NCBI RefSeq assembly: GCF_009914755.1
Contig: NC_060926.1
Length of the DNA stretch: 64,000 bases
Direction: 5' to 3' (one strand)
Origin: the human T2T-CHM13v2.0 reference genome, Homo sapiens
Below, one piece after another: positions 58,196 to 59,269 of the stretch. Both the position numbers and the translations under genes were made by a program. Positions within the stretch are counted from its first letter, which is position 1. Every line of letters begins with the position of its first letter. A model generated the notes under the pieces. The model saw nothing but the letters and a program-made list of their open reading frames with translations, ran no database searches and was not told the origin of the DNA.

Positions 58196-58424
58196 CTTCT
58201 TTCTTTTTTCTTTTCTTTTCCTTTTTTTTTTTTTTTTTTTTTTTTGAGACAGGGTCTTGCTCTGTTGCCCAGGCTGGAGTGCAGTGGCAGTGACATGAAC
58301 GTGGCTCACTGCAGCCTCGACCTCCTGGGCTCAAGTGATTCTCCCACCTCAGCCTCCTGAGTAGCTGGGACCACAGGCACATGCCACCATGCTCAGCTAA
58401 TTTTTAAAAAATCTTTTAAAAGTT

Positions 58425-58499
58425 CCCCTGGTGGTCTAGTGGTTAGGATTCGGCACTCTCACCGCCACTGCCCCCGTTCAGTTACCGGTCAGGGAACCA
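58425..58499 (+). pseudogene. tRNA-Glu(CTC) retropseudogene, full length with encoded CCA
   Basis: cCCCTGGTGGTCTAGTGGTTAGGATTCGGCaCTCTCACCGCCaCtGCCCccGTTCagTTaCCGGTCAGGGAA-CCA. By hand this has 9 mismatches in 72 nt versus human tRNA-Glu-CTC as recalled. Anticodon CTC at 58458-58460, CCA at 58497-58499; T-arm and B box are damaged. Confidence 0.93.
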
Positions 58500-58570
58500 A
58501 GAAATGGAGCAGGACGAGCTGCAGACAAAACCCCTCAGACAGCAGATTAAAGAAGGAAGAGGTTTTTTGG
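58500..58570 (-). mobile_element. HERV-E-type (LTR2-like) U5 terminus and pre-PBS spacer
   Basis: Reverse complement reads aaaaaacctcttccttctttaatctgctgtctgaggggttttgtctgcagctcgtcctgctcCA-tttct-TGGTTCCCTGACCGG, i.e. LTR end (CA), spacer, then a tRNA-Glu PBS, as in HERV-E. Confidence 0.8.
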
Positions 58571-58683
58571 GTGCAGCACACCAACATGGCACATGTATAC
58601 ATATGTAACAAGCCGGCACGTTGTGCGCATATACCCTAAAACTTAAAGTATAATAAAAAAAATGAAAAAAAGTAAAAAATTAA
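58568..58683 (+). mobile_element. L1PA (about PA3-PA4-like) extreme 3' end with poly(A)
   Basis: tgggtgcagcacaccaacatggcacatgtatacatatgtaacaa...cacgttgtg...accctaaaacttaaagtataataaaaaa; AATAAA at 58652-58657. Confidence 0.93.
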
Positions 58684-59269
58684 AAAAAATCTTTTTAGAG
58701 CTGGGGTCTCACTACGTTGCCCAGACTTTTCTGAACTCCTGGACTCAAGTGACCCTCCCACCTCAGCCTCCCAAAATGTTGGGATTATAAACATGTGCCA
58801 CCATGAGCAGCCAAATCCTCATTTCTTGATGAAGATTCCTTCTCTGATAACTATCTTCTGATGCTGTGAGAGTGAACTGATATTTCCAAGAAAGGTGTAT
58901 CCCAGAGATTACAAACAGTGACCATCCAAAAAATATTAGAACTGCGCAGGGATCTTTCCAGAGCATTCTAAAAATGAAGCTTACAATAGATTTGATTGGC
59001 TGTGAAGTTGAAATGGGGAGGGAGGTAAACCTTATGCAGGTTGTTATAGGATGTTAATCTCCTGGGACAGAATGGGAATAGGTAAGGTGACAACTTTAAA
59101 ACAAATCAGAGAATTAAGAACATGGTTAAGAAATGATAGATTTTTGTGATCGGGGTTAAAAAGAGAGGAGCCATCTTTGATATAAAATAGGACTTTGTTT
59201 AACATTCTTGGGAAGATACTTCTCAGAATGGTGCATCTCACCCTTCCCATTGGCCAAGAGCGTCTCTTG

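What the first reader, a model, noticed from the sequence alone, without database searches (positions are those of the whole stretch)
58406..58700. Retroviral tRNA-primed minus-strand intermediate (tRNA-Glu + HERV-E U5) captured by LINE-1 as one chimeric insertion
Seen: between two copies of a 17-bp TSD (AAAAAATCTTTTAAAAG at 58406-58422; AAAAAATCTTTTTAGAG at 58684-58700; L1 endonuclease-type site TTTTT/AAAAAA) lie a complete tRNA-Glu(CTC) with CCA, then AGAAA plus about 65 nt antisense to an LTR 3' end, then about 85 nt of L1PA 3' UTR and poly(A). Established: eukaryotic tRNA genes do not encode CCA; HERV-E is primed by tRNA-Glu; a provirus keeps only about 18 nt of PBS, not the whole tRNA; the natural molecule with sequence tRNA-CCA-spacer-antisense U5 is the primer still attached to nascent minus-strand strong-stop DNA. 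Inference: L1 ORF2p began target-primed reverse transcription on its own RNA, then switched to (or was joined with) this RNA-DNA intermediate and copied it to the tRNA 5' end. That would be a fossil of cross-talk between ERV and LINE replication in the primate germ line, analogous to known U6-L1 chimeras but with a different partner. I cannot tell whether this locus has been described as a unit.
Basis: partly seen in the sequence, partly recalled or inferred. Interest (0 to 1): 0.93.

Follow-up and report, generated by a model that had tools for sequence, protein, structure and literature searches.

The report
tRNA-like HERV-E transcript fused to L1
One LINE-1-driven insertion carries a copy of a small RNA that came from a rearranged endogenous retrovirus which had copied its whole tRNA primer; it is a neat, already catalogued oddity and not a captured retroviral replication intermediate.

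Summary
A 17-bp target-site duplication splits an Alu and encloses a decayed tRNA-Glu(CTC) with CCA, the spacer AGAAA, 63 nt of antisense HERV-E LTR end in exact PBS register, and an L1 3' end with an A-tail. The interpretation (L1 captured a tRNA:minus-strand strong-stop hybrid) does not hold. The same tRNA-CCA-spacer-U5 module occurs in 8 other genomic copies of a rearranged HERV-E provirus. In these, the full tRNA complement follows the LTR and joins gag-leader sequence at a site that resembles the tRNA 5' end. The window copy carries that family's marks: two flank T's before the tRNA, T1>C, G45>T, and two U5 variants that are rare or absent in ordinary proviruses. It therefore descends from such a locus, not from a cellular tRNA. 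It starts 2-5 nt before the tRNA-like sequence and ends in the first T-run (the antisense AATAAA). These are the expected limits of a Pol III transcript, which was joined to L1 as in U6/L1 chimeras. Pol III transcription is inferred, not shown. The locus is already listed (tRNA-Glu-GAG + LTR2C + L1PA5) in Supplementary Table 3 of PMC13174262, without this reading.

The parts
58222..58405 (-). Left part of the host Alu (antisense; T-rich tail then body), interrupted by the insertion
   Evidence: sequence; Metazoa_SRP-like match at 58244-58397 (-); one search shows colinear Alu alignments after removal of the insert
58406..58422 (+). 5' copy of the target-site duplication, AAAAAATCTTTTAAAAG. Its last 1-3 bases (AAG) could instead belong to the insert, because the family flank also reads AAG.
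58423..58424 (+). TT: two bases of HERV-E internal (gag-leader, antisense) flank that precede the tRNA-like sequence in the genomic family copies. They are not part of a tRNA.
58425..58499 (+). Decayed full-length tRNA-Glu(CTC)-like sequence with templated CCA (58497-58499). It has C instead of T at position 1, T at position 45 and C at position 52, as in the family.
   Evidence: not called by ARAGORN or Rfam
58500..58504 (+). AGAAA, the complement of the TTTCT spacer between LTR end and PBS in HERV-E proviruses
58505..58567 (-). Last 63 nt of an HERV-E LTR (U5 plus the end of R), antisense. Annotated LTR2C:439-501 of 501 in PMC13174262 Table S3. It ends in the T-run 58563-58568, which is the antisense poly(A) signal.
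58568..58654 (+). 5'-truncated L1 3' UTR end (annotated L1PA5 in PMC13174262 Table S3)
58655..58683 (+). Interrupted poly(A) tail
58684..58700 (+). 3' copy of the target-site duplication, AAAAAATCTTTTTAGAG
58701..58811 (-). Right part of the host Alu
   Evidence: 58696-58811, -

Best explanation
The explanation has two steps.

Step 1 (inferred from anatomy). In an HERV-E (LTR2C-type) replication cycle, plus-strand strong-stop DNA synthesis did not stop after 18 nt of the tRNA-Glu primer. It copied the primer to its 5' end. The extended 3' end then paired with a look-alike of the tRNA 5' end about 630 nt downstream of the PBS in the gag leader. The result was a provirus reading LTR-TTTCT-full tRNA complement-gag, lacking about 0.55 kb of leader. 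This element now exists in 8 diverged copies embedded in 76-bp satellite arrays.

Step 2. Read on the opposite strand, that element contains a tRNA-Glu-like gene with its internal promoter boxes. It is followed by CCA, AGAAA, antisense U5, and then the antisense AATAAA as the first T-run. RNA polymerase III (inferred, not shown) would make a transcript of about 145 nt, starting a few bases upstream of the tRNA-like sequence and ending in that T-run. During one L1 target-primed reverse transcription into an Alu in a PARD3B intron, synthesis began on an L1 RNA poly(A). After about 87 nt it continued on this small RNA, by template switch or prior RNA ligation as proposed for U6/L1 chimeras, and ran to its 5' end. 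That gave the insert flanked by a 17-bp TSD.
For: - Single L1 event: TSD, T5/A6 target and A-tail; the empty site restores the Alu; L1 identity. PMC13174262 Table S3 flags the tRNA, LTR2C and L1PA5 pieces as found by its multi-species alignment test for contemporaneous arrival (method passages).
- The junction pre-exists in the genome: 8 full-length copies with shared flanks and 2 more solo fragments. A pattern search gave 12 hits and 0 in the control: 10 of these 11 loci (L006 was missed), one ordinary provirus and one plain tRNA retrocopy.
- Descent from that family: TT flank plus T1>C in 8/8 family copies; G45>T 6/8; G52>C 4/8; 58507 G in 6/8 family against 1/22 ordinary; 58542 G in 7/8 against 0/22. 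The exact 28-mer with TGGAG occurs at only 4 places, the window and 3 family copies. A tree puts the window in the type-1 group, nearest L002, but unresolved.
- Boundaries: the 5' end lies 2-5 nt before the tRNA-like start. The 3' end lies in the T6 run, which is the first run of four or more T's in 7 of 8 family copies and is the antisense AATAAA.
- Origin of the family: 14 of 14 ordinary proviruses that hold the region read ...CTAAGTTT(C/T)C(C/T)TGGTGTCATAGT 583-875 nt from the PBS end. This matches the tRNA 5' end TCCCTGGTG exactly in 5 of them. After the tRNA complement the chr2:159 Mb copy encodes Gag_p30, protease, RT, RNase H and integrase.
- m1A58 as the RT stop, and read-through products becoming non-complementary: PMC8599865 passages.
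- Control: a retrocopy of mature tRNA-Glu (L070) begins at T1 and runs CCA straight into poly(A).
Against: - No transcription data were available. Pol III initiation and termination are inferred from the boundaries only.
- The B box of the window copy is decayed. Only 1 of 8 family copies (L002) is still called a tRNA by ARAGORN.
- No family copy is closer than 88% to the window module, so the source copy is not identified.
- T-runs of 5-7 also occur in some ordinary HERV-E LTRs, so the T-run itself is not family-specific.
- Of the two other solo fragments, L061 ends at an internal CAAAA and lacks the diagnostic 5' end. L017 is structurally ambiguous. Neither independently confirms the transcript limits.
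- Primate orthologues were not examined here. Timing rests on one flag in a published table.
Confidence: 0.65

Rival explanations
1. L1 ORF2p switched from its own RNA to a primer tRNA-Glu still covalently attached to nascent HERV-E minus-strand strong-stop DNA and copied it to the tRNA 5' end.
For: The order tRNA-CCA-AGAAA-antisense U5 is exactly that of such a molecule, and the PBS register is exact. Reverse transcriptases pause in homopolymer runs (recalled), so an end at the T-run is conceivable.
Against: - The window copy begins with two T's that belong to the retroviral gag-leader flank of the genomic family. It has C at tRNA position 1, as do 8/8 family copies, and shares G45>T and G52>C with 6/8 and 4/8 of them. 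A mature tRNA cannot supply these.
- All genuine tRNA-Glu genes found match only from query position 3.
- Its U5 carries two variants seen in 6-7 of 8 family copies but in 1/22 and 0/22 ordinary proviruses.
- The DNA part covers 63 nt and does not reach the 5' end of R, although LTR homology continues at least 130 nt further in family and ordinary copies.
Confidence: 0.04
2. The donor was a fragment of a longer antisense (for example Pol II or read-through) transcript of a family locus. The two boundaries are accidents of template switching and of where reverse transcription ended.
For: Descent from the family is equally explained. No direct evidence for Pol III exists. L061 ends at an internal A-run and not the T-run.
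Against: Both ends coincide with the limits of a tRNA-type Pol III unit. The start lies 2-5 nt before the tRNA-like sequence, after the RT had crossed the whole structured region. The end lies inside a 6-nt T-run, out of at least 195 nt of antisense LTR available downstream. For the 3' end alone this is roughly a few per cent by chance (my estimate).
Confidence: 0.2
3. A tripartite chimera formed by two template switches: L1 RNA, then an antisense LTR RNA, then a mature tRNA-Glu-CCA.
For: PMC13174262 Table S3 annotates tRNA and LTR2C as separate pieces. Triple chimeras are known (PMC4476161 passages).
Against: The CCA-AGAAA-TG junction is base-for-base the proviral PBS-spacer-LTR junction, found at 203 places at up to 3 mismatches with 0 in the control. 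Two random switches would not recreate it. The same shared-flank and shared-substitution evidence applies as above.
Confidence: 0.02
4. Stepwise insertions or a DNA-level rearrangement (gene conversion or segmental copying from a family locus) and not one retrotransposition event.
For: Family copies have spread with their satellite flanks, probably by duplication.
Against: One TSD pair encloses all modules, with an EN-type site and an A-tail. The Alu is restored exactly when the insert is removed. No family flank beyond 2-5 nt is present. The published alignment-based flag marks the pieces as arriving together.
Confidence: 0.03

Closest known systems
U6/L1 chimeric pseudogenes (PMC4476161, passages seen; Buzdin 2002/2003 only as cited there)
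   Same: A complete small RNA in sense orientation, ending in its U-tract, sits directly before a 5'-truncated L1 3' end with poly(A). The whole is flanked by one TSD at an EN-type site.
   Different: The small RNA is not a housekeeping snRNA. It is the inferred transcript of a tRNA-like gene lying antisense inside a rearranged endogenous retrovirus, and its Pol III origin is untested.
tRNA/LINE-1 chimeric insertions of PMC13174262 (Cell Genomics 2026), Table S3, 21 loci. This locus is the row chr2:205354373-205354474 (hg38): L1PA5, tRNA-Glu-GAG:1-75 (+), LTR2C:439-501 (-).
   Same: It is the same locus. The module lengths (75, 5-nt gap, 63, 102) fit window 58425-58499, 58500-58504, 58505-58567 and 58568-58669.
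   Different: By the paper's account most tRNA/L1 chimeras are half tRNAs in antisense orientation, attributed to tRNA halves and twin priming. This one is full-length, sense, and carries an LTR piece. The main text has no occurrence of LTR2C or tRNA-Glu. No TSD or note is given in its row.
Defective retroviral DNAs made when plus-strand strong-stop synthesis reads past the normal stop in the primer tRNA. m1A58 as RT stop: PMC8599865, passages. Olsen and Swanstrom 1985, J Virol, is recalled and was not seen.
   Same: tRNA sequence beyond the 18-nt PBS is copied next to U5, and a deletion begins at the PBS.
   Different: Here the whole tRNA, 76 nt to its 5' end, is copied. The product is fixed in the germ line in 8 copies. 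The rescue site is a look-alike of the tRNA 5' end in the gag leader.
Strong-stop-DNA model for the origin of tRNA-derived SINEs (Ohshima, Okada and colleagues 1993, PNAS; recalled, not seen; my search did not retrieve it)
   Same: A tRNA joined to retroviral U5-derived sequence acts as a Pol III-driven retroposon that depends on a LINE.
   Different: The junction here comes most simply from plus-strand read-through inside a provirus, not from free minus-strand strong-stop DNA. The element reached at most three retrocopies, so it is not a SINE family.

Membership tests
L1 chimeric retro-insertion (U6/L1 type) | One target-site duplication encloses the whole composite | tested here: met
   17-bp copies at 58406-58422 and 58684-58700, 15/17 identical. 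Removing the insert restores a colinear Alu.
L1 chimeric retro-insertion (U6/L1 type) | L1 endonuclease-type target site (T-run/A-run) | tested here: met
   TTTTT (58401-58405) directly before AAAAAA
L1 chimeric retro-insertion (U6/L1 type) | The 3' module is a 5'-truncated L1 3' end with poly(A), in the same orientation as the small RNA | tested here: met
   39 of 39 other scored genomic matches at 95-97%. Copies L068 and L069 end in poly(A). L069 has L1 ORF1 domains upstream. The subfamily name L1PA5 comes only from PMC13174262.
L1 chimeric retro-insertion (U6/L1 type) | The 5' module is a discrete small RNA copied to its 5' end, and its 3' end abuts the L1 | tested here: met
   The module runs from 2-5 nt before the tRNA-like start to the T6 run that abuts the L1 at 58568. 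That these are real RNA ends is inferred.
L1 chimeric retro-insertion (U6/L1 type) | All modules appear together in related species | not testable with these tools
   No primate genomes are held here. PMC13174262 Table S3 gives found_by_msa_prediction = 1 for this row.
tRNA-primed minus-strand strong-stop DNA intermediate | The 5' end is the 5' end of the mature primer tRNA | tested here: not met
   The window reads TT+CCCCTGG, as in the family flank. Genuine genes read TCCCTGG. The mature-tRNA retrocopy L070 starts at T1.
tRNA-primed minus-strand strong-stop DNA intermediate | The tRNA body is that of the cellular tRNA apart from private decay | tested here: not met
   Of 9 differences from the gene within the tRNA body (58425-58496), 3 are shared with 4-8 of the 8 family copies: T1>C 8/8, G45>T 6/8, G52>C 4/8.
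tRNA-primed minus-strand strong-stop DNA intermediate | CCA, spacer and antisense U5 lie in PBS register | tested here: met
tRNA-primed minus-strand strong-stop DNA intermediate | The DNA part extends through U5 and R | tested here: not met
   It stops after 63 nt at the antisense AATAAA. LTR homology continues at least 130 nt further in other copies.
tRNA-type (type 2) Pol III transcription unit | Internal A and B boxes | tested here: inconclusive
   The A-box region is identical to the genuine gene in the window, L005 and L007, and differs by 1-2 bases in the others. The B box is decayed in the window. Only L002 of 8 family copies is still called a tRNA. The box consensus is recalled.
tRNA-type (type 2) Pol III transcription unit | The first downstream run of four or more T's acts as terminator and coincides with the RNA 3' end | tested here: met
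   The first run of four or more T's lies at +126 to +140 in 7 of 8 family copies and at +138 in the window, where the module ends.
tRNA-type (type 2) Pol III transcription unit | Transcription by Pol III | not testable with these tools
   No expression or occupancy data are available here.
SINE | Amplification to a multi-copy family with a LINE-derived tail | tested here: not met
   Only one L1-tailed copy (the window) and two other solo fragments, among 11 module loci in the assembly.
HERV-E provirus (the source family) | tRNA-Glu PBS after the LTR, and gammaretrovirus-type gag-pro-pol | tested here: met
HERV-E provirus (the source family) | Two LTRs flanking the internal region | tested here: not met
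   In the chr2:159 Mb copy no second R-U5 is found. Both sides run into 76-bp satellite arrays.

The most novel reading that the evidence does not exclude
The 8 rearranged HERV-E copies and their retrocopies are a proto-SINE caught in the act. A retrovirus copied its entire primer tRNA into its own genome. That fossil became a Pol III gene on the opposite strand, tRNA-Glu plus U5. L1 then mobilised its transcript, here by giving it an L1 tail. This would be a primate example of the long-proposed route from retroviral tRNA priming to tRNA-derived SINEs.
Probability: 0.35. Interest if true: 0.65.

Novelty: new variant of a known kind. Interest (0 to 1): 0.45.

Why it matters
The locus itself is not new. 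It is a row in a published table of tRNA/LINE-1 chimeras.

Three things appear to be unreported. My searches found no description, but the unreadable PDFs of PMC13174262 may bear on this.
- Its tRNA and LTR pieces are one pre-joined unit.
- That unit comes from a small family of HERV-E proviruses that hold a complete copy of their primer tRNA, joined at a microhomology.
- The boundaries of the retrocopy fit a Pol III transcript of that fossil.

If Pol III transcription is confirmed, this gives a concrete, datable case of how retroviral priming debris can seed a LINE-dependent small retroposon. It also gives germ-line evidence that reading through the primer tRNA's RT-stop can yield an integrated provirus.

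Tried and rejected
- ARAGORN and Rfam at E<=1 do not call the window tRNA. Similarity to genuine genes was used instead.
- The L1 3' piece has no other copy in the window or in earlier loci, so genome matches were used.
- Pfam found nothing L1-like in L068. L069 gave ORF1 domains.
- A second R-U5 downstream of the chr2:159 Mb family copy was looked for and not found.
- The T-run is not a family marker, because ordinary LTRs have T3 to T7 there.
- TGGAG is not fully exclusive to the family. One ordinary provirus (L067, chr18) has it.
- The tree of the 148-nt module has no well-supported placement for the window, so the source copy is unidentified.
- L017 was first taken as a second T-run-terminated retrocopy. 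AAGGCCTTTTTT recurs about 95 nt upstream of it, which allows an opposite-strand reading, so I do not count it.
- Literature searches for a prior description of a full tRNA in HERV-E, or of the strong-stop SINE model, gave nothing usable.
- PMC12220202 (abstract only) concerns a different tRNA-Gly event in HIV.
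Full report
**1. What is in the window**

The sequence shows an antisense Alu split by an insert.
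- The Alu gives 7SL-like matches at 58244-58397 and 58696-58811 on the minus strand.
- The insert lies between two 17-bp direct repeats, 58406-58422 and 58684-58700, which agree at 15 of 17 positions. T5 lies directly before the first repeat.
- Deleting 58423-58700 gives a continuous Alu. 12 other Alus of the window align across the join.

Inside the repeats, in order:
- TT (58423-58424).
- A 75-nt tRNA-Glu(CTC)-like sequence ending in CCA (58425-58499).
- AGAAA (58500-58504).
- 63 nt antisense to the end of an HERV-E LTR (58505-58567), closing with T6 (58563-58568).
- 87 nt of a high-copy repeat (58568-58654).
- An interrupted A-tail (to 58683).

The tRNA is too decayed for ARAGORN and Rfam. 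It still matches genuine tRNA-Glu genes at 89% over 71 nt. The 8 genes I inspected are all called tRNA-Glu (6 CTC, 2 TTC), and none encodes CCA.

The high-copy repeat is the L1 3' end.
- 39 of 39 other scored genomic matches are 95-97% identical, mostly from the second query base, which is window 58568.
- Two copies that I fetched end in poly(A).
- One of them has L1 ORF1 RBD and dsRBD-like domains upstream.

**2. PBS register**

In a genome search with the 148-nt module (788 candidates, 40 scored, 44 matches), ordinary HERV-E proviruses match only from query 55-83 onward, at 87-93%. They read ...CTACA-TTTCT-TGGTTCCCTGACCGGGAA followed by the normal leader.

The 28-nt PBS-spacer-LTR junction occurs at 203 places at up to 3 mismatches, and at none for the reversed control.

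**3. The module is not unique**

The same search found 8 other loci that match the whole module at 76-88%:
- chr13:40.67 Mb (L002)
- chr2:159.34 Mb (L003)
- chr8:7.83, 6.82, 7.80 and 12.98 Mb (L004-L007)
- chr3:128.42 Mb (L022)
- chr2:96.06 Mb (L062)

It also found 2 partial loci with tRNA sequence beyond the PBS: L017 on chr3:106.88 Mb and L061 on chr2:11.58 Mb.

A degenerate pattern across the T-arm, PBS and spacer found 12 places and 0 for the control. These were 10 of the 11 module loci (L006 was missed), one ordinary provirus, and one plain tRNA retrocopy.

The 8 full copies share flanks on both sides for 1.7 to more than 2.7 kb.
- Downstream, the antisense LTR simply continues. It is homologous to ordinary LTRs for about 195 nt from the LTR end.
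- Upstream lies antisense HERV-E internal sequence.

Read in proviral sense, the chr2:159 Mb copy runs as follows:
- a 76-bp satellite array;
- the 3' part of an LTR;
- TTTCT;
- the full complement of tRNA-Glu;
- Gag_p30, protease, RT, RNase H and integrase;
- a 76-bp satellite array again.

No second R-U5 is present.

**4. How the family arose (inferred)**

In 14 of 14 ordinary proviruses that hold the region, the antisense gag leader reads ...CTAAGTTT(C/T)C(C/T)TGGTGTCATAGT. This lies 583-875 nt (mostly about 630) from the PBS end.
- It matches the tRNA 5' end TCCCTGGTG exactly in 5 of the 14, and with 1-2 mismatches in the rest.
- It continues to resemble the following GTCTAGT of the tRNA.

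In the family the tRNA joins the internal sequence exactly at this look-alike.

The simplest account is this. Plus-strand strong-stop synthesis copied the primer tRNA to its 5' end instead of stopping after 18 nt. The extended end then paired at the look-alike, which deleted about 0.55 kb of leader.

Published work on HIV-1 (PMC8599865, passages seen) supports two parts of this:
- m1A58 is the RT stop.
- Without a stop, the plus strand runs on and becomes non-complementary.

Position 58 reads A in 8 of 8 family copies, so no misincorporation is recorded there. A similar class of defective avian retroviral DNAs is something I recall (Olsen and Swanstrom 1985) but did not see.

**5. The window copy descends from that family, not from a cellular tRNA**

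The family flank before the tRNA reads AAGTT, and tRNA position 1 is C instead of T. The window reads AAAAG-TT-CCCCTGG, which is the same string. Genuine genes read TCCCTGG.

Within the tRNA body (58425-58496) the window differs from the gene at 9 positions. One search also lists 58423, but there the comparison is with the gene's own 5' flank.

| Position (window) | Change | Family copies sharing it |
|---|---|---|
| tRNA 1 (58425) | T>C | 8 of 8 |
| tRNA 45 (58469) | G>T | 6 of 8 |
| tRNA 52 (58475) | G>C | 4 of 8 |

The other six are private or shared with a single copy.

In U5, the window's bases compare as follows.

| Window position | Window state | Family copies | Ordinary proviruses |
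|---|---|---|---|
| 58507 | G | 6 of 8 | 1 of 22 |
| 58542 | G | 7 of 8 | 0 of 22 |
| 58565 | extra T | 7 of 8 | 3 of 22 |

Further points:
- The exact TGGAG 28-mer occurs only in the window and 3 family copies. One ordinary provirus on chr18 has TGGAG with another mismatch.
- A maximum-likelihood tree of the module puts the window in an unresolved group with L002, L003, L022 and the pairs L004/L006 and L005/L007. Its nearest copy is L002, at 88%.
- A retrocopy of mature tRNA-Glu (L070) begins at T1 and goes from CCA straight into poly(A) between its own TSDs. It is a single contrast case.

A primer tRNA attached to strong-stop DNA cannot carry two bases of gag-leader flank.

**6. What the donor molecule was (inferred)**

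The insert starts 2 nt before the tRNA-like sequence. It could start up to 5 nt before, because the last bases of the 5' TSD copy, AAG, equal the family flank. That reading would also remove one of the two TSD mismatches.

The insert ends inside the T6 run. That run is the complement of the LTR's AATAAA. It is the first run of four or more T's after the tRNA-like start in 7 of 8 family copies. L005 has an earlier TTTT created by mutation.

A start a few bases upstream of a tRNA gene and an end in the first T-run are the expected limits of a Pol III transcript. This is established knowledge of type 2 promoters and is recalled. The donor was therefore most likely an unprocessed RNA of about 145 nt.

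Its fusion to an L1 3' end within one TSD is the architecture of U6/L1 chimeras. Those are explained by template switching from the L1 RNA (PMC4476161, passages) or by prior RNA ligation, which PMC13174262 names as an alternative (passages).

No expression data could be consulted. Only 1 of 8 family copies is still recognised as a tRNA today.

**7. The other solo fragments**

L061 has a clear 10-bp TSD (ATCCTACTCA). It begins at about tRNA position 8 and ends at an internal CAAAA of the antisense U5. It is an independent retrocopy of the same kind of RNA, but it lacks the diagnostic ends.

L017 begins at tRNA position 17 and appears to end at a T-run. However, AAGGCCTTTTTT recurs about 95 nt upstream of it, which allows an opposite-strand reading. 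I leave it undecided.

**8. What is known**

The locus is in print as a table row. PMC13174262 (Cell Genomics 2026), Table S3, sheet tRNA, lists:
- hg38 chr2:205354373-205354474, L1PA5
- tRNA-Glu-GAG:1-75 (+)
- LTR2C:439-501 (-)
- found_by_msa_prediction = 1
- no TSD entry and no note

The lengths 75, 5, 63 and 102 fit the window coordinates above.

Coverage of that paper:
- I read parts 1-2 of that file and passages of the main text.
- The main text has no occurrence of LTR2C or tRNA-Glu.
- It describes tRNA/L1 chimeras as mostly half-length and antisense. This locus is not like that.
- The other spreadsheets were only searched by term.
- Three PDF supplements could not be read.

HERV-E dating (waves after about 45 and 25 My) comes from passages of PMC4379568. 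The age of L1PA5 is only recalled.

Six literature searches found no description of HERV-E copies with a whole tRNA-Glu, or of a transcript from them.

**9. Verdict**

It is one L1 chimera, and it holds a fossil of tRNA priming. But the fossil was made by the retrovirus itself, sat in the genome, and reached this site as an RNA copy.
- I rate it a new variant of a known kind, of moderate interest.
- The open point is Pol III transcription of the family copies.

Noticed in passing
L065 1-2379 and 7454-9324 (chr2:159.34 Mb); also L063 (chr13:40.67 Mb): The rearranged HERV-E copies are embedded on both sides in arrays of a 75-76-bp tandem repeat, partly inverted. The copies on chr2, chr3, chr8 (x4) and chr13 share these flanks, which suggests spread by duplication of a composite unit and not by retrotransposition. 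The satellite was not identified.
   Followed up: partly
L070 (chr8:59,013,340-59,013,560): A retro-pseudogene of mature tRNA-Glu. It starts at tRNA position 1, has CCA followed directly by an interrupted poly(A), and is flanked by a roughly 13-bp duplication (AAAGATGTTTTTCT / AAAGACGTTTTTCT).
   Followed up: partly
L015 (chr8:10,494,354-10,494,590): An ordinary HERV-E provirus with three tandem copies of the spacer-plus-U5 segment; only the first also keeps the full PBS. It gives three adjacent matches to query 60-145, 73-145 and 73-146.
   Followed up: no
L006 (chr8:7,804,266-7,804,408) and the downstream 45 nt: This family copy carries a local duplication of the antisense U5 segment (AAGCCCCTCA...GAAGAGATTTT appears twice) before the LTR continues.
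   Followed up: no
L017 (chr3:106,879,136-106,879,242): A solo fragment running from tRNA position 17 to antisense U5, of the L062-like subtype (TGGTCTGGA). It is preceded by a T-rich/TTATTATAC stretch, and AAGGCCTTTTTT recurs about 95 nt upstream. Its mode of insertion is unclear.
   Followed up: partly
L067 (chr18:71,693,560-71,694,060): An ordinary HERV-E 5' LTR/PBS with the otherwise family-typical LTR end TGGAG (sense ...CTCCA) and a 5-nt insertion in U5. It may be close to the LTR lineage from which the rearranged family arose.
   Followed up: no
window 58426-58625: NCBI's repeat mask, as given with the task, leaves the tRNA-like, LTR and most of the L1 piece unmasked between the two masked Alu halves.
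   Followed up: no
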